From UHGV virus genome UHGV-0097752: a DNA stretch of 19,920 nucleotides. One strand, written 5' to 3'. Each line of letters starts with the position of its first letter. Within the stretch, counting starts at the first letter, position 1. Positions 2,683 to 13,515 of this stretch are shown here, piece after piece. A program made the translations under genes and the position numbers. The notes below the pieces were generated by a model. That model saw only the letters and a program-made list of their open reading frames with translations, had not been told where the DNA came from and ran no database searches. Source of the DNA: a virus.

Positions 2683-2728
2683 CGCTCTTTTCACAATGGA
2701 CATTCGTCCTACGTCGCTGACAAAGCGA
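2683..2728 (+). promoter_or_regulatory. nutR (boxA-like CGCTCTTT plus boxB hairpin TCGCTGACAAAGCGA)
   Basis: CGCTCTTT at 2683-2690 just after the cro stop. 5-bp stem with GACAA pentaloop at 2714-2728, same loop as the nutL hairpin. Confidence 0.5.
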
Positions 2729-4248: not shown

Positions 4249-6129
4249 ATGACGCCAAGTGAACTCAGTGACCTGCTTTGGGCGCAGGTTGACAGGGTGG
4301 CTCCGCACCTGTTGCCAAACGGCAAGAAAGAGGGGCATGAGTGGGTTGCCGGTAACGTCAACGGTGACAAGGGAAACAGCCTTAAGGTCAACCTTAGCGG
4401 CAAGAAAAAATGGGCTGATTTCGCTGAGGGAGACGGCGGTGACATGCTTGATTTGTGGATGGCATGTCGTGGAATTAACCTGCATCAGGCTATGCAGGAA
4501 GCGAAAGCCTTTCTCGGAATCAAGGATGACGATCACCATTTCGATGCCAAACGTGAGAAGAAATTCTCCAGACCTGACCGCAAGAAAATCGCCCGCTACG
4601 TTACCAGAACAGAATCCCATCTTGAGTACCTGCAATCGCGTGGCATATCGCCAGAAGTCGTAAAGCGCTACGAGGTTGTCAGCGGCAAGGTGTGGAATGG
4701 AGAACGGGAACTGGATGCTCTGGTGATTCCGTACAAACGCGATGGTGAGTTGTTGCAGGTCAAGCGAATCAGCACTGAGCGCCCGGACGGGAAGAAAGTC
4801 ATTATGGCAGAAGGTGATTGCGAACCTTGTCTGTTCGGATGGCAGGCTCTGGACGCTGGCGTGAGGGCGGTTGTACTTTGCGAAGGCGAAATTGATTGTA
4901 TGAGCTATGCGCAATACGGCATCTCGGCGTTATCCGTGCCGTTTGGTGGCGGGAAAGGCGCTAAGCAACAGTGGATTGAGTTTGAGTATCACAACCTCGA
5001 CAGGTTTGAGGAAATATTCATCTCGATGGATGTTGATGATGTTGGTCGTGAAGCCGCAAGGGAAATCGCAAGCCGACTCGGTGAACATCGTTGCCGTCTT
5101 GTTACTCTGCCGTACAAAGACATCAACGAATGCCTGATGAACGGTGTTACCGAGGATGAAATCTGGCAGTACATCGGCACGGCATCCTACTTCGATCCTG
5201 AAGAACTCTACAGCGCGCGCGAGTTTTACCAGGACACTATCAACGCTTTCTACGGCAAGCAGCAGTATCTGTTTAATCCACCGTGGGAATCTCTGGCAGA
5301 TAAATTCCAGTTCCGTGAGGCCGAGTTGACGCTGGTCAATGGTGTGAACGGTCACGGAAAAACGGAGGTTGTCGGGCATATGGCACTTGAGGCAATGCGT
5401 CAGGGGGTGAAGACGTGCATCGCGTCACTTGAGCTGAAGCCTGGTATTCTCCTTAAGCGCCTTACCCGTCAGGCAACGTGCTGCAAGATGCCGCCAGTGC
5501 TGGAAATTGACTCTGCATTTAAATTTTATGACGAAAGACTTTGGGTGTTTGGCCTGACCGGAACGGCGAAAGCCGACAGACTGATCGAAATATTCGACTA
5601 CGCTCGCCGCCGATACGGGATCCAGTTATTCATCATCGACAGCCTAATGAAATGTGGCATAGGCGACGATGACTATAACGGGCAGAAGGCGTTTGTTGAC
5701 TCGATTTGCGACTTCAAAAACAAAACAAACTCCCACGTCATTCTCGTTACTCACTCGCGAAAAGGAGACAGCGAAGAAAAACCAACCGGGAAAATGGACG
5801 TAAAAGGCTCTGGAGCGATAACAGACCTGACAGACAACCTTTTCATCATCTGGCGTAACAAGGCTCGCGAGAGAGCGTTACAGAGAGTTCAGAGTGGTGA
5901 AAAGATGTCAGAGAAGGACGAACAGCTACTGGCATCTCCGGCATCTGTTTTGATGCTTGAAAAACAACGTAACGGCGAAGGTTGGGAAGGTGGTGTCCCG
6001 TTGTTCCTTGACGAGCAATCGCACCAGTTCCTGCAACTTGAATCAGGATCGCCATATAGCTACATCGCCAATATGCCGAAATCGGAATATGACGAGGCGT
6101 GGCGACAGGAAAACGTGACGGAGTATTAA
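4249..6129 (+). CDS. Bifunctional primase-helicase (TOPRIM primase domain plus RecA-like helicase domain)
   Basis: 626 aa. TOPRIM-like acidic motifs (VVLCEGEIDCMS, ISMDVDDVGREAA), Walker A GVNGHGKTEV, Walker B-like LFIIDSLMK. Follows O where lambda carries P. Confidence 0.8.
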   Translation: MTPSELSDLLWAQVDRVAPHLLPNGKKEGHEWVAGNVNGDKGNSLKVNLSGKKKWADFAEGDGGDMLDLWMACRGINLHQAMQEAKAFLGIKDDDHHFDAKREKKFSRPDRKKIARYVTRTESHLEYLQSRGISPEVVKRYEVVSGKVWNGERELDALVIPYKRDGELLQVKRISTERPDGKKVIMAEGDCEPCLFGWQALDAGVRAVVLCEGEIDCMSYAQYGISALSVPFGGGKGAKQQWIEFEYHNLDRFEEIFISMDVDDVGREAAREIASRLGEHRCRLVTLPYKDINECLMNGVTEDEIWQYIGTASYFDPEELYSAREFYQDTINAFYGKQQYLFNPPWESLADKFQFREAELTLVNGVNGHGKTEVVGHMALEAMRQGVKTCIASLELKPGILLKRLTRQATCCKMPPVLEIDSAFKFYDERLWVFGLTGTAKADRLIEIFDYARRRYGIQLFIIDSLMKCGIGDDDYNGQKAFVDSICDFKNKTNSHVILVTHSRKGDSEEKPTGKMDVKGSGAITDLTDNLFIIWRNKARERALQRVQSGEKMSEKDEQLLASPASVLMLEKQRNGEGWEGGVPLFLDEQSHQFLQLESGSPYSYIANMPKSEYDEAWRQENVTEY

Positions 6130-6157
6130 ATGACCATCTACATCACTGAGCTAATAA

Positions 6158-6190
6158 CAGGCCTGCTGGTAATCGCAGGCCTTTTTATTT
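6158..6190 (+). terminator. Intrinsic terminator after the replication genes (tR2-like position)
   Basis: AGGCCTGC-TGGTAATC-GCAGGCCT hairpin followed by TTTTTATTT. Confidence 0.55.
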
Positions 6191-6205
6191 GGGGGAGAGT
6201 AAATC

Positions 6206-6412
6206 GTGGCTGAGTTTATGCTCGTCGCATTCAAATGCGTTGGCGTTGGATGGATTCTTCTGACGTTTTTTATTGTTCTGCATAGCTACATTCGTCTTGT
6301 GAATGACGGTAAAGACCCATGGTATACGTTGTTTGGCGCTGCATTTGTCTGGGTGATTATCGGTGTTATGCCTGTTGTCGTAGCAAAAATGGCGTGGCGT
6401 TTTGTGAGTTGA
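6206..6412 (+). CDS. Small membrane protein (two predicted TM helices)
   Basis: 68 codons from GTG 6206, GGGGGAGAG RBS 6 nt upstream; strongly hydrophobic (LVAFKCVGVGWILLTFFIVL, LFGAAFVWVIIGVMPVVVA). Confidence 0.5.
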   Translation: MAEFMLVAFKCVGVGWILLTFFIVLHSYIRLVNDGKDPWYTLFGAAFVWVIIGVMPVVVAKMAWRFVS

Positions 6413-6429
6413 ACTGAGGGTAAGTATCG

Positions 6430-6750
6430 ATGGACGAATCAAGAAAGCAGTTTGAAGAAAGTTGGTTGCGACGTGGAGGCGAATCATCAGACCTTATCCG
6501 TTACCCTGAAAATCACCATGAAATTGGCAGTGGTGATATTGGTGGTCAATACGTGATGGACGATGTTCAAGGCCACTGGCAAACGTGGCAGGCATCGCGA
6601 GCAGCTATTGAAATAACCGCGCCAAAGTTTATCGACAGCAGAGAAGCATTAGCCAAAGGGTTTACTGTTGATTATTCCAATGGCTTCGGTGATGCAATGG
6701 ATGCTTATGAGGAAAACATCCGCGCTGCTGGAGTCAAAGTGAAGGAGTGA
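6430..6750 (+). CDS. Hypothetical protein (106 aa), unassigned
   Basis: ORF with GAGGG RBS about 8 nt upstream of ATG; acidic, no recognisable motif; co-oriented in the delayed-early operon. Confidence 0.55.
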   Translation: MDESRKQFEESWLRRGGESSDLIRYPENHHEIGSGDIGGQYVMDDVQGHWQTWQASRAAIEITAPKFIDSREALAKGFTVDYSNGFGDAMDAYEENIRAAGVKVKE

Positions 6751-6752
6751 GT

Positions 6753-6917
6753 ATGAGCGCATACGAAGAAATCATGTTAGCCCTGCGATTCTTTTTCGGT
6801 GTGGAAGAAGATGAAAACGTAAATGAGATTATCGGGCAAGACCATGACCCGATAGGGACTATTGCAGCTGCACTTGACGATTACAGGAGCGTAAATGGTG
6901 AGGAAACTAACGTTTGA
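6753..6917 (+). CDS. Small hypothetical protein (54 aa)
   Basis: ATG 6753 three nt after the upstream stop with GGAG RBS; MSAYEEIMLALRFFFGVEEDENVNEIIGQDHDPIGTIAAALDDYRSVNGEETNV; overlaps the ninB start. Confidence 0.4.
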   Translation: MSAYEEIMLALRFFFGVEEDENVNEIIGQDHDPIGTIAAALDDYRSVNGEETNV

Positions 6918-7338
6918 ACTAAGAAGCCCCATCCATCAGCAGAACGCCATTCAAGCTATCCAGCAAATCCTTCCAGACCCAACCAAACCAATCGTAGTGA
7001 CCATCCAGGAACGCAACCGCAGCTTAGACCAAAATCGGAAGCTTTGGGCTTGCCTTGGTGACGTCTCTCGTCAGGTTGAATGGCATGGTCGCTGGCTGGA
7101 TGCAGAAAGCTGGAAGTGTGTGTTTACCGCAGCATTAAAGCAGCAGGACGTTGTTCCTAACCTTGCCGGGAATGGCTTTGTGGTAATAGGCCAGTCAACC
7201 AGCAGGATGCGTGTAAGCGAATTTGCGGAGTTATTAGAGCTTATACAGGCATTCGGTACAGAGCGTGGCGTTAAGTGGTCAGACGAAGCTCGACTGGCTC
7301 TGGAGTGGAAAGCGAGATGGGGAGACAGGGCTGCATGA
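6895..7338 (+). CDS. ninB: NinB (Orf-family recombination mediator)
   Basis: 147 aa, near-identical to lambda NinB as recalled (QQILPDPTKPIVVTIQERNRSLDQNRKLWACLGDVSRQVEWHGRWLDAESWKCVF...). Confidence 0.9.
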   Translation: MVRKLTFELRSPIHQQNAIQAIQQILPDPTKPIVVTIQERNRSLDQNRKLWACLGDVSRQVEWHGRWLDAESWKCVFTAALKQQDVVPNLAGNGFVVIGQSTSRMRVSEFAELLELIQAFGTERGVKWSDEARLALEWKARWGDRAA

Positions 7339-8207
7339 TAAATGTCGTTAGTTTCTCCGGTGGCAGGACGTCAGCATATTTGCTCTGGCTAATGGAGCAA
7401 AAGCGACGGGCAGGTAAAGACGTGCATTACGTTTTCATGGATACAGGTTGTGAACATCCAATGACATATCGGTTTGTCAGGGAAGTTGTGAAGTTCTGGG
7501 ATATACCGCTCACCGTATTGCAGGTTGATATCAACCCGGAGCTTGGACAGCCAAATGGTTATACGGTATGGGAACCAAAGGATATTCAGACGCGAATGCC
7601 TGTTCTGAAGCCATTTATCGATATGGTAAAGAAATATGGCACTCCATACGTCGGCGGCGCGTTCTGCACTGACAGATTAAAACTCGTTCCCTTCACCAAA
7701 TACTGTGATGACCATTTCGGGCGAGGGAATTACACCACGTGGATTGGCATCAGAGCTGATGAACCGAAGCGGCTAAAGCCAAAGCCTGGAATCAGATATC
7801 TTGCTGAACTGTCAGACTTTGAGAAGGAAGATATCCTCGCATGGTGGAAGCAACAACCATTCGATTTGCAAATACCGGAACATCTCGGTAACTGCATATT
7901 CTGCATTAAAAAATCAACGCAAAAAATCGGACTTGCCTGCAAAGATGAGGAGGGATTGCAGCGTGTTTTTAATGAGGTCATCACGGGATCCCATGTGCGT
8001 GACGGACATCGGGAAACGCCAAAGGAGATTATGTACCGAGGAAGAATGTCGCTGGACGGTATCGCGAAAATGTATTCAGAAAATGATTATCAAGCCCTGT
8101 ATCAGGACATGGTACGAGCTAAAAGATTCGATACCGGCTCTTGTTCTGAGTCATGCGAAATATTTGGAGGGCAGCTTGATTTCGACTTCGGGAGGGAAGC
8201 TGCATGA
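7335..8207 (+). CDS. ninC: NinC (PAPS-reductase-like)
   Basis: Start at ATG 7335 (ATGA overlap with the ninB stop), [22 protein letters not shown]... The 310-aa track ORF has an upstream in-frame extension I do not consider translated. Confidence 0.9.
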
Positions 8208-8885: not shown

Positions 8886-9054
8886 CCCATCCCAATCCCT
8901 TCAATACCAGAAAGAAAGCGTCGAGCGAGCTTTAACGTGCGCTAACTGCGGTCAGAAGCTGCATGTGCTGGAAGTTCACGTGTGTGAGCACTGCTGCGCA
9001 GAACTGATGAGCGATCCGAATAGCTCAATGTACGAGGAAGAAGACGATGAGTGA
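8878..9054 (+). CDS. ninF: NinF
   Basis: 58-aa [61 protein letters not shown], lambda NinF-like as recalled. Confidence 0.75.
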   Translation: MLSPSQSLQYQKESVERALTCANCGQKLHVLEVHVCEHCCAELMSDPNSSMYEEEDDE

Positions 9055-9556
9055 TGTTAAAGAAAAAGATATCCCCGGCTTTGAGGGTATATATAAAGTA
9101 ACTGAAAATGGAGACATCATTTCATGCCGTAAATCAAAAAAATTATCTCATGGCATTAAACTAGGAGGATATGCATTTGTCGGTCTGTATCCAGGTGGCG
9201 GGAAAAGACCATCATATAAAATGGTTCACAGAATTGTTGCAGAAGTATTTATTGATAACCCAGATGGCAAACCGGAAGTTAATCACAAGGATGGAAATAA
9301 ACTTAATAATAAAGTTGAAAATCTTGAGTGGGTAACGCGAACAGAAAATGCGAAACATGGATTTGATTCCGGATTGCTTGTTCATGGGTTTAATCATCAC
9401 TTCTGCAAACTAACGCCAGAACAAGTGAAATCAATATATAAATCAAAAGGCAAATACAGAGATATAGCCAAAGAATTTGGTGTTTGTGCGCAGACAGTGT
9501 GCAACATAAAAAACAAATCAGCGTACCGACGTTTTTTGGAGGGGATTGATGTTTAG
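9047..9556 (+). CDS. HNH homing-endonuclease-like protein (NUMOD4-like N-terminus, HNH_3 core, C-terminal HTH)
   Basis: 169 aa; GFEGIYKVTENGDIIS (NUMOD4-like), HRIVAEVFIDNPDGKPEVNHKDGNKLNNKVENLEWVTRTENAKHG (HNH_3-like), C-terminal KSKGKYRDIAKEFGVCAQTVCNI (HTH-like). Visibly more AT-rich than the flanking nin genes. Confidence 0.8.
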   Translation: MSDVKEKDIPGFEGIYKVTENGDIISCRKSKKLSHGIKLGGYAFVGLYPGGGKRPSYKMVHRIVAEVFIDNPDGKPEVNHKDGNKLNNKVENLEWVTRTENAKHGFDSGLLVHGFNHHFCKLTPEQVKSIYKSKGKYRDIAKEFGVCAQTVCNIKNKSAYRRFLEGIDV

Positions 9557-10945: not shown

Positions 10946-11020
10946 GGGTCAGTCGTATAAAGGTCATTACGGAAGGCTGTTAACCTTCTTATCGTGGTTC
11001 GAGTCCACGCTGTCCCGCCA
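10946..11020 (+). tRNA. tRNA-Asn (anticodon GTT), phage-encoded
   Basis: Hand-folded cloverleaf: acceptor GGGTCAG/CTGTCCC (one T-T mismatch), anticodon stem GAAGG/CCTTC with loop CTGTTAA, T-arm CGTGG-TTCGAGT-CCACG, discriminator G, encoded CCA. D-stem has only 3 bp. Confidence 0.6.
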
Positions 11021-11025
11021 AATAT

Positions 11026-11101
11026 GCTGGTTTAGCTCCAATGGTAGAGCGGTCGCCTTGTAAGCGAATGGGTAGCGGTTCAAGTCCGTTAACCAGCACC
11101 A
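11026..11101 (+). tRNA. tRNA-Thr (anticodon TGT), phage-encoded
   Basis: Hand-folded cloverleaf: perfect 7-bp acceptor GCTGGTT/AACCAGC, D-arm GCTC-CAATGGTA-GAGC, anticodon loop CTTGTAA (stem has one G-A mismatch), T-arm AGCGG-TTCAAGT-CCGTT, discriminator A, encoded CCA. Confidence 0.65.
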
Positions 11102-11342: not shown

Positions 11343-11666
11343 ATGAAGATGCCTGAAAAACATGACCTGTTAGCCGCCATTCTCGCGGCAAAGGAACAAG
11401 GCATCGGGGCAATCCTTGCGTTTGCAATGGCGTACCTTCGCGGCAGATATAATGGCGGTGCGTTTACAAAAACAGTAATCGACGCAACGATGTGCGCCAT
11501 TATCGCCTGGTTCATTCGTGACCTTCTCGACTTCGCCGGACTAAGTAGCAATCTCGCTTATATAACGAGCGTGTTCATCGGCTACATCGGTACTGACTCG
11601 ATTGGTTCGCTTATCAAACGCTTCGCTGCTAAAAAAGCCGGAGTAGAAGATGGTGGAAATCAATAA
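11343..11666 (+). CDS. S: Holin S (class I, dual-start MKM motif)
   Basis: 107 aa, matches lambda S as recalled ([64 protein letters not shown]...). Confidence 0.95.
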
Positions 11667-12126
11667 TCAACGTAAGGCGTTCCTCGATATGCTGGCGTGG
11701 TCAGAGGGAACTGATAACGGACGGCAGAAAACCAGAAATCATGGTTATGACGTCATTGTAGGCGGAGAGCTATTTACTGATTACTCCGATCACCCTCGCA
11801 AACTTGTCACGCTAAACCCAAAACTCAAATCAACAGCCGCCGGACGTTACCAGCTTCTTTCCCGTTGGTGGGATGCCTATCGCAAGCAGCTTGGCCTGAA
11901 AGACTTCTCTCCGAAAAGCCAGGACGCTGTGGCATTGCAGCAGATTAAAGAGCGTGGCGCTTTACCGATGATTGATCGCGGCGATATTCGTCAGGCTATC
12001 GATCGTTGCAGCAATATCTGGGCGTCGTTACCTGGTGCAGGTTACGGTCAGTATGAACATAAAATCGGTGACCTGATTTCCCGGTTTAAAGAGGCTGGTG
12101 GGGTGGTAAATGAAGTTGAGCTATAA
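11650..12126 (+). CDS. R: Endolysin R (lytic transglycosylase)
   Basis: 158 aa, lambda R-like ([39 protein letters not shown]...); overlaps the S stop. Confidence 0.95.
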
Positions 12127-12748: not shown

Positions 12749-13069
12749 ATGAAAGACGGCATTTATTTTGTTGTGTTCAGAAGCGGTCATAATGATGTTG
12801 GCAATGGCACGGTCGTTGTGAAGGATAATGCGGTTAATGGTGGTGATTTTGGGTTTACCTATCAGGGGCGTGTACAAGATGGGGTATTGAAACTTCATGT
12901 ATCCCGCCATAACCCTTCAGCACAAAACGTTATTGCAGGCCTTAACGATTATGTGATGGATCTCTCTGTGAGAGATATTGGGGATGGTTATTACCTTGAA
13001 GGTGGAATTGCTGGTGTTCCTGGTGCGACTCTGTCTGTACAGGCGAAATTTATCGGCAATTTGATTTAA
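12749..13069 (+). CDS. GrlR-family protein (moron)
   Basis: 106 aa; MKDGIYFVVFRSGHNDVGNGTVVVKDNAVNGGDFGFTYQGRV...LKLHVSRHN...AKFIGNLI resembles the GrlR regulator of LEE-encoded type III secretion as recalled. AT-rich upstream region and a downstream terminator. Confidence 0.65.
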   Translation: MKDGIYFVVFRSGHNDVGNGTVVVKDNAVNGGDFGFTYQGRVQDGVLKLHVSRHNPSAQNVIAGLNDYVMDLSVRDIGDGYYLEGGIAGVPGATLSVQAKFIGNLI

Positions 13070-13164: not shown

Positions 13165-13515
13165 ATGCCCCCACGAACCCCAAAAGCCTGCCGTGTTCGC
13201 GGCTGCCGCCATACCACCACTGACCCGTCAGGCTATTGCGAAAGCCACAAAAGCGAAGGCTGGAAGCAATACAAACCTGGACAATCCCGTCATCAGCGCG
13301 GCTACGGTTCGAAGTGGGACAGTATCCGCGCGCGTGTCCTGAAGCGTGACAAAGGCCTGTGTCAGTTATGTCTGCGTGCTGGTGTGGTGCGTGAGGCGAA
13401 AACCGTTGACCACATCATCCCTAAAGCGCATGGCGGCACTGATGCCGACAGTAATCTGCAGAGTCTGTGCTGGCCGTGCCATAAGGCGAAGACGGCCCGT
13501 GAACGGTTAAAGTGA
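13165..13515 (+). CDS. HNH endonuclease (terminase-associated type)
   Basis: 116 aa; Cys/His-rich with DHIIPKAHGGTDADSNLQSLCWPCHKAK; sits immediately upstream of the terminase small subunit, as in HK97-type cos packaging modules. Confidence 0.85.
   Translation: MPPRTPKACRVRGCRHTTTDPSGYCESHKSEGWKQYKPGQSRHQRGYGSKWDSIRARVLKRDKGLCQLCLRAGVVREAKTVDHIIPKAHGGTDADSNLQSLCWPCHKAKTARERLK

What the first reader, a model, noticed from the sequence alone, without database searches (positions are those of the whole stretch)
6130..6917. Cluster of small unassigned ORFs, two of them membrane-type, after the tR2-like terminator
Right after the primase-helicase stop there is a 27-codon hydrophobic ORF (6130-6211, MTIYITELITGLLVIAGLFIWGRVNRG) with a GGAG RBS that contains the terminator hairpin. 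It is followed by a 68-aa two-TM protein, a 106-aa acidic protein and a 54-aa protein, none recognisable to me. In lambda this slot holds ren. Small membrane proteins at this position could be superinfection-exclusion, toxin-like or lysis-timing factors.
Basis: partly seen in the sequence, partly recalled or inferred. Interest (0 to 1): 0.45.

Follow-up and report, generated by a model that had tools for sequence, protein, structure and literature searches.

The report
Small accessory genes after lambda tR2
The four small reading frames are real and sit in a swap-prone slot of a lambda-like E. coli prophage, between the tR2 terminator and the ninB gene; all belong to catalogued phage families, the first is lambda's NinA, and what the other three do is unknown.

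Summary
The window is a lambdoid E. coli prophage. Positions 6130-6917 carry four tightly chained plus-strand ORFs between the primase-helicase gene and ninB.

- **ORF 1 (27 aa):** this is lambda/P22/HK620 NinA, with the genuine lambda tR2 hairpin inside it. The 75-nt block occurs in 421 phage records. A published reporter study shows that its start codon is used.
- **ORF 2 (68 aa, GTG start):** a two-helix membrane protein of a very narrow Enterobacterales phage family (phrog_1165). Its length is fixed, and its own frame has the lowest dN/dS of the six.
- **ORF 3 (106 aa):** a PF26207 "Phage_phiTE_015" protein.
- **ORF 4 (54 aa):** an acidic three-helix protein (phrog_1603).

None has a known function or a fold match. 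In a census of 54 distinct tR2-to-ninB slots, 7 were empty as in lambda. The other 47 carried interchangeable small cargo genes, including Lar-like restriction alleviation. I found no promoter. The genes lie behind tR2 in the N-antiterminated early operon, so they are lytic-phase accessory genes, not lysogen-expressed exclusion genes.

This is ordinary, already catalogued biology with unknown function.

The parts
6120..6123 (+). GGAG Shine-Dalgarno sequence for NinA, inside the 3' end of the primase-helicase gene
   Evidence: Sequence. Eight unrelated upstream gene contexts all carry a Shine-Dalgarno-like motif 6-8 nt before the NinA ATG.
6130..6213 (+). NinA ORF (27 aa), starting directly after the primase-helicase stop and containing tR2
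   Evidence: phrog_5907, E 1.3e-18. HK620 and P22 annotate ninA with a terminator inside it. 98.6% identical to lambda 40567-40636. The start site is active in a reporter (PMC4824070).
6159..6190 (+). tR2 intrinsic terminator: 8-bp G+C-rich stem, 8-nt loop, T-run
   Evidence: Terminator scan, RNA fold, base-for-base identity with the lambda, P22 and HK620 tR2.
6191..6199 (+). GGGGGAGAG Shine-Dalgarno sequence, last part of the conserved junction block; serves whichever gene follows tR2
   Evidence: The same block precedes ninB in lambda and P22 and the 68-aa gene here.
6206..6412 (+). 68-aa two-transmembrane protein (GTG start), phrog_1165, RefSeq WP_000229119-like hypothetical protein
6430..6750 (+). 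106-aa acidic protein, PF26207 Phage_phiTE_015 / phrog_343
6753..6917 (+). 54-aa acidic three-helix protein, phrog_1603; its last 7 codons overlap the ninB 5' end
6898..7338 (+). ninB (Orf recombination mediator), the right-hand anchor of the slot
   Evidence: PF05772, E 2.4e-54; RefSeq annotation.
4249..6129 (+). Toprim/DnaB-like primase-helicase, the gene on the left flank
   Evidence: Pfam and phrog_239.
2684..2727 (+). Putative nutR (boxA-like CGCTCTTT, P22-type boxB-like TCGCTGACAAAGCGA) upstream in the same operon
   Evidence: Sequence. Its identity with P22 boxB rests on my memory, not on a tool result.

Best explanation
Positions 6130-6917 are the tR2-to-ninB accessory slot of the rightward early (pR) operon of a lambdoid prophage.

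**Shown**
- The left edge is a portable 75-nt junction block. It holds the NinA start codon abutting the stop of the upstream replication gene, the tR2 hairpin and T-run, and a strong Shine-Dalgarno sequence for the next gene.
- The right edge is the 5' end of ninB.
- Between them sit three independent small cargo genes in a fixed order: the 68-aa membrane hairpin protein, the PF26207 protein, and the 54-aa acidic protein.
- All are chained by overlapping or closely spaced stop and start codons.
- No promoter-like site was found in or around the slot.

**Inferred**
- The genes are made only when N-modified RNA polymerase reads through tR2, that is, in the delayed-early phase of lytic growth or induction.
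- Ribosomes leaving the primase-helicase gene restart at NinA, translate through the terminator sequence, and hand over to the 68-aa gene.
- The three cargo proteins are non-essential lytic-phase accessory factors.
- The 68-aa protein most likely inserts in the inner membrane with both ends in the cytoplasm and acts on a host membrane component or on incoming phage DNA.
- The two acidic proteins most likely bind and block host proteins, as the Lar-like restriction-alleviation genes found in the same slot of relatives do.

The molecular targets are unknown.
For: **Identity of NinA/tR2:**

**Junction block**
- It is nearly invariant while the flanks are unrelated: eight upstream contexts, each with a Shine-Dalgarno-like motif.
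- The NinA start is functional in a reporter. There, transcripts ending at tR2 become non-stop messages and upstream expression is halved.

**Slot census:** 54 unique slots, of which 7 are empty and 47 carry cargo. The 68-aa gene occurs in 23, always first (offset +47 from the hairpin in 22 of 23) and always before PF26207 (17 of 17).

**Other cargo in the slot:** Lar-like restriction alleviation, DUF7301, FlbD-like and other unknown proteins.

**Purifying selection and fixed lengths:**

**Synteny at long range:** kept at 33-44% identity in three of four remote contexts (differs).

**No autonomous expression signal:** no promoter-like site (0 found, 2.0 expected) and tight gene spacing.

**Operon context:** CI, Cro, CII, O, primase-helicase, nin genes, Q and a nut-like site.

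**A lytic rather than lysogenic role:** a relative of the 54-aa protein lies in a 141-kb Stephanstirmvirinae Klebsiella phage.
Against: - No functional evidence exists for any of the three cargo proteins. There are no Pfam, NCBIfam, PADLOC or PDB sequence hits and no fold matches.
- The promoter scan covers only sigma-70 consensus sites, so weak or non-canonical promoters would be missed.
- N-dependence is inferred from lambda; the N gene is outside the window.
- In the reporter, NinA translation changed tR2 efficiency by only about 10%, so its purpose is unclear.
- The HK022 type lacks the NinA start but keeps the hairpin, so NinA is dispensable.
- The counter-defence idea rests on sharing a slot with Lar and on acidity only.
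Confidence: 0.6

Rival explanations
1. The 68-aa membrane protein is a superinfection-exclusion or abortive-infection factor. It would either be made in the lysogen, or be made early in lytic growth like T4 Imm or T5 Llp (comparison from memory).
For: It is a small two-helix membrane protein with specific conserved residues: W16, G35-K36, W49, G53, P56, K61, W64. It is non-essential cargo in a variable slot. Other small membrane proteins also occur in this slot.
Against: It lies behind tR2, with no promoter-like site. It has no PADLOC match. It is unrelated to the other membrane cargo. The early-lytic version of the idea is not excluded, and the best explanation already allows it as one option.
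Confidence: 0.15
2. The 68-aa protein is a toxin, holin-like or lysis-timing factor.
For: Its size and two-helix layout resemble class II holins (general knowledge). Small hydrophobic proteins are often toxic when over-produced.
Against: The prophage has its own S-type holin at 11343-11666, in the late lysis cassette behind Q. This gene is early, far from the lysis genes, and has no holin family hit. It is carried in 473 of 5426 complete E. coli genomes with no adjacent antitoxin-like partner identified.
Confidence: 0.1
3. NinA is not a gene. The 27-codon frame is a chance open frame across a terminator, and only the RNA hairpin is under selection.
For: - The block is conserved as DNA, with almost no change even where the next gene has diverged to 50% identity.
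- The HK022 type has the hairpin without the NinA start.
- The variable sites in the first 29 nt fall 7, 3 and 2 at codon positions 3, 1 and 2, which by my arithmetic is not significant.
- A 27-codon open frame has about a 1 in 4 chance of occurring (my arithmetic).
Against: - Eight unrelated upstream genes each supply a Shine-Dalgarno-like motif 6-8 nt before the ATG, and a stop codon touching it.
- The NinA stop overlaps the start of the next gene in lambda, P22 and here.
- HK97 has a different hairpin but keeps the start and an open frame.
- Mutating the ribosome-binding site or ATG changes reporter output.
Confidence: 0.2
4. The 68-aa protein and the PF26207 protein form a two-part system: a membrane anchor plus a soluble partner.
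For: They are adjacent here, in HK022 and in Salmonella prophages. They lie within 400 nt of each other in three of four remote contexts, at 33-44% identity.
Against: - Among cargo-bearing slots, PF26207 is equally common with the 68-aa gene (17 of 23) and without it (17 of 24); Fisher p = 1.0.
- HK620 has the 68-aa gene alone.
- PF26207 occurs in many phages that lack the 68-aa family.
Confidence: 0.1
5. The real gene is the 100-aa ORF on the minus strand (6185-6487), not the 68-aa ORF.
For: Stop-free stretches of about 100 codons on the minus strand recur in relatives.
Against: In the two most divergent comparisons the plus-strand frame has the lowest dN/dS (0.33-0.34), against 0.48-1.12 for the minus-strand frames. 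RefSeq and PHROGs call the plus-strand gene. It has a strong Shine-Dalgarno sequence and an exact 68-codon length in all relatives.
Confidence: 0.02

Closest known systems
[quoted passage not shown]
   Same: Same sequence: 98.6% identity to lambda 40567-40636. Same hairpin, same start abutting the upstream stop, and same handover to the next gene.
   Different: The upstream gene here is a primase-helicase, not ren or P. The last four codons differ (RVNRG here, RGKS in lambda) because the following gene is the 68-aa ORF and not ninB.
HK022 genes 58, 59 and 60
   Same: Same order after tR2: a 68-aa membrane protein, then a PF26207 protein, then a small gene overlapping ninB.
   Different: - The HK022 68-aa protein is only 54% identical, and its PF26207 protein 75% identical.
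- Its third gene is an unrelated FlbD-like 84-aa protein.
- HK022 lacks the NinA start.
Lambda Ren
   Same: A non-essential small gene placed after the replication genes in the same operon.
   Different: Ren lies upstream of NinA/tR2 and is unrelated in sequence. No ORF here matches a Ren family.
Lar-like restriction alleviation proteins (PF14354, phrog_599)
   Same: They occupy the same position, directly before ninB, in related prophages. They are small and non-essential.
   Different: The 54-aa protein here has no cysteine motif and no Lar hit. The only link is the shared slot.
Class II holins and T4 Imm-type small membrane proteins (comparison from memory)
   Same: Size of roughly 60-80 aa with two transmembrane helices.
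   Different: No sequence relation was found. The genomic position and timing differ from holins, and no function has been tested.

Membership tests
NinA (phrog_5907) | Sequence match to the lambda/P22 NinA ORF | tested here: met
   phrog_5907, E 1.3e-18, covering 26 of 27 residues; 98.6% DNA identity to lambda.
NinA (phrog_5907) | ORF starts at the stop of the preceding early gene and encloses the tR2 hairpin | tested here: met
   TAA 6127-6129, ATG 6130, hairpin 6159-6182. HK620 and P22 have the same layout.
Lambda tR2 intrinsic terminator | G+C-rich hairpin followed by a T-run, identical to the characterised lambda site | tested here: met
Lambda tR2 intrinsic terminator | Terminates transcription and is overridden by N | not testable with these tools
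   Inferred from sequence identity with lambda tR2, which is about 90% efficient in a reporter.
PF26207 Phage_phiTE_015 | Match to the Pfam model | tested here: inconclusive
   The local Pfam copy gave no PF26207 hit for this protein or for four homologues that carry the precomputed label, so the model seems to be absent from it. Homologues at 97% identity and full length carry the precomputed PF26207 label. RefSeq names the allele 'phiTE_015 family protein'. phrog_343, E 3.9e-30.
phrog_1165 (68-aa membrane protein family) | Full-length profile match and two hydrophobic helices | tested here: met
   E 1.6e-38 over residues 1-68 of 68; hydropathy peaks.
phrog_1603 (54-aa acidic protein family) | Full-length profile match | tested here: met
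   E 1.7e-32; conserved core at residues 1-46.
Lambda Ren | Sequence relation to Ren, and a position between P and NinA/tR2 | tested here: not met
   No Ren family hit for any ORF. No ORF lies between the helicase stop and NinA. Lambda ren ends at the NinA start.
Moron (self-contained prophage-expressed cargo) | Own promoter upstream and own terminator downstream | tested here: not met
   No promoter-like site in 5800-7400. Apart from tR2 itself, the scan reports two weak terminator-like sites, neither after the cluster: one in the helicase gene (5983-6000) and one with only 3 G-C pairs inside the 68-aa ORF (6242-6267).
Holin | Membrane protein encoded next to the endolysin in the late lysis cassette | tested here: not met
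   The two helices are present. But the gene is early and about 5 kb from the S-type holin at 11343-11666, and it has no holin family hit.
Known anti-phage defence systems (PADLOC) | Match to a defence-system protein model | tested here: not met
   No family matched any of the four ORFs at E <= 0.1.
Superinfection exclusion proteins | Blocks entry or growth of a second phage | not testable with these tools
   This is a functional definition and there is no shared sequence family.

The most novel reading that the evidence does not exclude
Two readings remain open.

1. The 68-aa protein could found a new, very narrow family of early-expressed inner-membrane factors that block a membrane-based host defence or a superinfecting phage. 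It is always the first gene after the replication module, and only 27 representative clusters exist among 1.84 billion proteins.
2. The NinA start may be kept so that every transcript ending at tR2 is a non-stop message. Such a message would be handed to tmRNA, which would lower replication-gene output when N is absent. This could bear on the unexplained need of lambda-P22 hybrid phages for ribosome rescue (PMC2862035). However, lambda has the same block, and that paper reports the tmRNA dependence only for the hybrid.
Probability: 0.12. Interest if true: 0.55.

Novelty: already known. Interest (0 to 1): 0.2.

Why it matters
If the 68-aa membrane protein or the two acidic proteins prove to be counter-defence or exclusion factors, they would add to the list of small phage proteins that decide infection outcomes. 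They would also be easy to test, because they are short, non-essential and common: near-identical DNA is present in 473, 276 and 26 of 5426 complete E. coli genomes respectively. As the evidence stands, the region is a good worked example of lambdoid mosaicism. It shows a fixed junction block, swappable cargo, and cargo tails dictated by the overlapping ninB start. It is not a new kind of system.

Tried and rejected
- **Family scans.** Pfam, NCBIfam and PADLOC scans of the four ORFs gave nothing meaningful. The only hits were far below cut-off: T4SS_pilin (E 0.022) and an antiporter subunit (E 0.029).
- **PDB sequence searches.** Nothing meaningful for the three cargo proteins.
- **Structure models and fold searches.** AlphaFold models had pLDDT 74 for the 106-aa protein and 81 for the 54-aa protein. 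Foldseek against the PDB found no match at E <= 0.001. BFVD returned only uncharacterised phage proteins.
- **Two-part system of the 68-aa and PF26207 proteins.** Rejected after dereplication: Fisher p = 1.0.
- **Relation between the 68-aa protein and another two-helix cargo protein of the slot.** None found.
- **Minus-strand 100-aa ORF.** Rejected as a shadow frame.
- **Protein-level selection on NinA.** The codon-position pattern is suggestive but not significant.
- **Rfam.** Only two tRNAs in the whole window.
- **Literature.** Searches for the accession numbers, PHROG ids, phiTE_015 and PF26207 found no functional study. The lambda ribosome-profiling paper (PMC3718152) is not held.
- **Species-representative genomes.** The scan gave only three loci. 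The first attempt, with the broader alignment, failed for lack of a conserved stretch.
- **Lifestyle of PF26207-carrying phages.** I could not verify it. One Pseudomonas phage with a PF26207 gene has an integrase, so I make no 'virulent phage' claim for that family.

Full report
**1. What is there**

The window is a lambdoid E. coli prophage. Its gene order is:
- a KilA-N gene and a CI-type repressor on the minus strand;
- on the plus strand: Cro, CII, an O-type initiator, a Toprim/DnaB-type primase-helicase (4249-6129), the region in question, ninB, a PAPS-reductase NinC-like gene, NinX, an HNH gene, RusA, NinH and Q;
- two tRNAs, an S-type holin, then the terminase and portal genes.

- **27 codons:** 6130-6213 including the stop.
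- **68 codons:** 6206-6412, from a GTG start.
- **106 codons:** 6430-6750.
- **54 codons:** 6753-6917, from an ATG start.

The ORFs are chained. The helicase stop TAA directly precedes the first ATG. The stop of the first ORF overlaps the GTG of the second (GTGGCTGA). The third follows after 17 nt. The fourth starts 2 nt after the third's stop. The fourth overlaps the ninB start by about 20 nt.

**2. The 27-codon ORF is NinA and the hairpin is tR2**

- It matches phrog_5907.
- HK620 and P22 annotate the same ORF as ninA with a terminator inside it.
- The DNA is 98.6% identical to lambda 40567-40636.
- An alignment shows the hairpin, the T-run and the following GGGGGAGAG to be base-for-base the same in lambda, P22 and HK620, in two Salmonella/E. 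coli prophage types, and here.
- The block occurs in 421 of 50,697 phage records.

The block behaves as a portable junction. In 120 IMG/VR loci chosen for an exact hairpin match, the 25 nt upstream fall into at least eight unrelated contexts: ren, several helicase types, and DnaC-like genes. Every one supplies a Shine-Dalgarno-like motif 6-8 nt before the NinA ATG, and a stop codon that touches or overlaps it.

That pattern argues that the start codon is selected. So does HK97, which keeps the NinA start and an open frame but has a different hairpin and T-run.

Three things argue the other way.
- HK022-type phages keep the hairpin but lack the ATG.
- The first 29 nt vary mostly at third codon positions (7, 3 and 2 sites at positions 3, 1 and 2), but not significantly.
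- The rest of the block is conserved as DNA.

A published reporter study used the natural lambda sequence (PMC4824070). It found that:
- the NinA initiation site is active;
- NinA translation lowers tR2 efficiency by only about 10%;
- transcripts that end at tR2 lack a stop codon for NinA, and upstream reporter output is halved, an effect the authors attribute to trans-translation and degradation of non-stop mRNA.

NinA is therefore known, probably translated, and of unknown purpose. Its hydrophobic look comes from the frame in which the hairpin and T-run are read (GLLVIAGLFIW). That is not evidence of a membrane role.

**3. The 68-aa ORF is a real membrane protein gene of a very narrow family**

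- It fully matches phrog_1165, and RefSeq annotates it as a hypothetical protein.
- Homologues down to 50% identity are all exactly 68 aa.
- One hundred and seven phage records carry it, all from Escherichia or Salmonella.
- An exhaustive profile search of 1.84 billion representative proteins found only 27 clusters. Named members of the remote 60-66 aa forms come from Pantoea and Izhakiella.
- Near-invariant residues are W16, G35, W49, G53, P56, K61 and W64.
- Two hydrophobic peaks and a positively charged C-terminal tail fit a hairpin with both ends in the cytoplasm (the topology is inferred).
- In the two most divergent comparisons its frame has the lowest dN/dS of all six (0.33-0.34). The 100-codon ORF on the opposite strand is therefore a shadow frame.
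- A Salmonella allele with ATG at the same codon supports the GTG start.

**4. The 106-aa ORF is a PF26207 (Phage_phiTE_015) protein**

- Homologues at 97% identity carry the precomputed PF26207 label, as do the neighbours of the 68-aa gene in relatives. The model appears to be absent from the local Pfam copy.
- The family is mosaic within the gene. The N-terminal SRxQFE, the central WxxWQASR and the C-terminal AGxKVKE are conserved, and the segments between them are swappable.
- The family occurs in 95 phage records, including Klebsiella, Hafnia, Yersinia and Pseudomonas phages.
- The AlphaFold model (pLDDT 74) is a small alpha/beta unit with a disordered variable loop. It has no PDB fold match, and its BFVD matches are all uncharacterised.

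**5. The 54-aa ORF is an acidic three-helix protein**

- It has 13 acidic and 2 basic residues and belongs to phrog_1603.
- dN/dS is 0.125 against the BTP1 copy.
- It is rare: 10 phage records and 26 of 5426 E. coli genomes.
- A relative lies between the anaerobic ribonucleotide reductase genes of a 141-kb Klebsiella phage.
- Its last residues (EETNV) are the ninB 5' end read in another frame. Unrelated genes in the same position share this tail, or the alternative SQRSNQK tail that goes with another ninB allele.
- The model has no fold match.

**6. The slot**

Among 54 distinct tR2-to-ninB intervals:
- 7 are empty, as in lambda, and 47 carry 250-1250 nt of cargo;
- the 68-aa gene is in 23, always first and at a fixed offset from the hairpin in 22 of 23;
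- PF26207 is in 34, and both genes are in 17.

Their co-occurrence is what independent cargo would give (Fisher p = 1.0). The conserved neighbourhood seen even at 33-44% identity therefore reflects a shared slot and not a two-part system.

Other cargo includes Lar-like restriction alleviation, DUF7301, an FlbD-like protein and several unknown proteins, some of them membrane proteins. Only 10 of 5426 complete E. coli genomes match at least 80% of the 6100-6950 stretch in one place. The individual genes are far commoner: 473, 276 and 26 genomes.

**7. How it most likely works**

*Shown:* the gene order, the chaining of the ORFs, the terminator identity and the absence of a promoter-like site.

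*Inferred from lambda biology:*
- Transcription from pR stops partly at tR2 unless N has modified the polymerase. A nut-like site lies at 2684-2727.
- The three cargo genes are therefore delayed-early lytic genes.
- Their roles are unknown. My best guess is host takeover or counter-defence. The guess rests on sharing a slot with Lar, on acidity, and on the occurrence of a 54-aa family member in a large Klebsiella phage. I hold it with low confidence.
- Exclusion expressed from the prophage, and holin-like roles, are less likely. An Imm-like early exclusion role for the membrane protein is not excluded.

**8. Verdict**

All parts belong to catalogued families and the arrangement is the classic nin-region mosaic. 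Novelty is low, and interest is modest, limited to the untested functions.

Noticed in passing
window 10946-11101: Two tRNA genes, Asn (GTT) and Thr (TGT), lie between the Q antiterminator gene and the holin gene.
   Followed up: partly
window 9047-9556 and 13165-13515: There are two HNH endonuclease genes. One, with NUMOD4 and HNH_3 domains, sits inside the nin region like a homing endonuclease. The other lies directly before the small terminase gene.
   Followed up: no
window 11650-12126: A 158-aa ORF sits where the endolysin should be, between the holin and a DUF2570-like (weak hit, below Pfam cut-off) gene. It has no Pfam hit at E <= 0.001.
   Followed up: no
window 2684-2727: A nutR-like site lies between cro and cII: boxA-like CGCTCTTT and a hairpin TCGCTGACAAAGCGA. 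From memory the hairpin looks like the P22 type of boxB, although Cro is lambda-type.
   Followed up: partly
window 6895-6917; loci L068, L084, L108, L035, L123: Unrelated genes placed just before ninB end in the same peptide tail (EETNV/EETNI or SQRSNQK). The tail is the ninB 5' end read in another frame, so the recombination joint lies upstream of it.
   Followed up: yes
proteins P0133 and P0138 (Salmonella): In some Salmonella prophages NinA and the 68-aa ORF are called as a single in-frame ORF of 93-94 aa. The aligned proteins differ by an indel at the NinA-to-68-aa junction, which corresponds to the G-run after tR2.
   Followed up: partly
L135 601-699 (HK97 gp56): HK97 keeps the first 32 nt of NinA but has a different G+C-rich hairpin and T-run in the same place, still inside an open frame of 32 codons.
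   Followed up: partly
proteins P0009, P0015, P0043: Some PF26207 proteins carry a 33-residue cysteine-rich N-terminal extension (MSKCQKCNNTGMCDSGG...CDC) that looks like a zinc-binding motif.
   Followed up: no
L144 1405-1656 (Klebsiella phage FBKp34): A relative of the 54-aa protein lies between the large subunit and the activase of the anaerobic ribonucleotide reductase in a 141-kb phage, with a NinX-like gene about 1 kb downstream.
   Followed up: no
window 12749-13069: A 106-aa ORF after the lysis genes has a weak GrlR-like hit (E 4.3e-5, below the Pfam cut-off).
   Followed up: no
L138, L139: Metagenome bins labelled Cellvibrionaceae and Bacillota contain contigs that encode the 68-aa protein at 53-56% identity. 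These are probably mis-binned enterobacterial prophage contigs.
   Followed up: no
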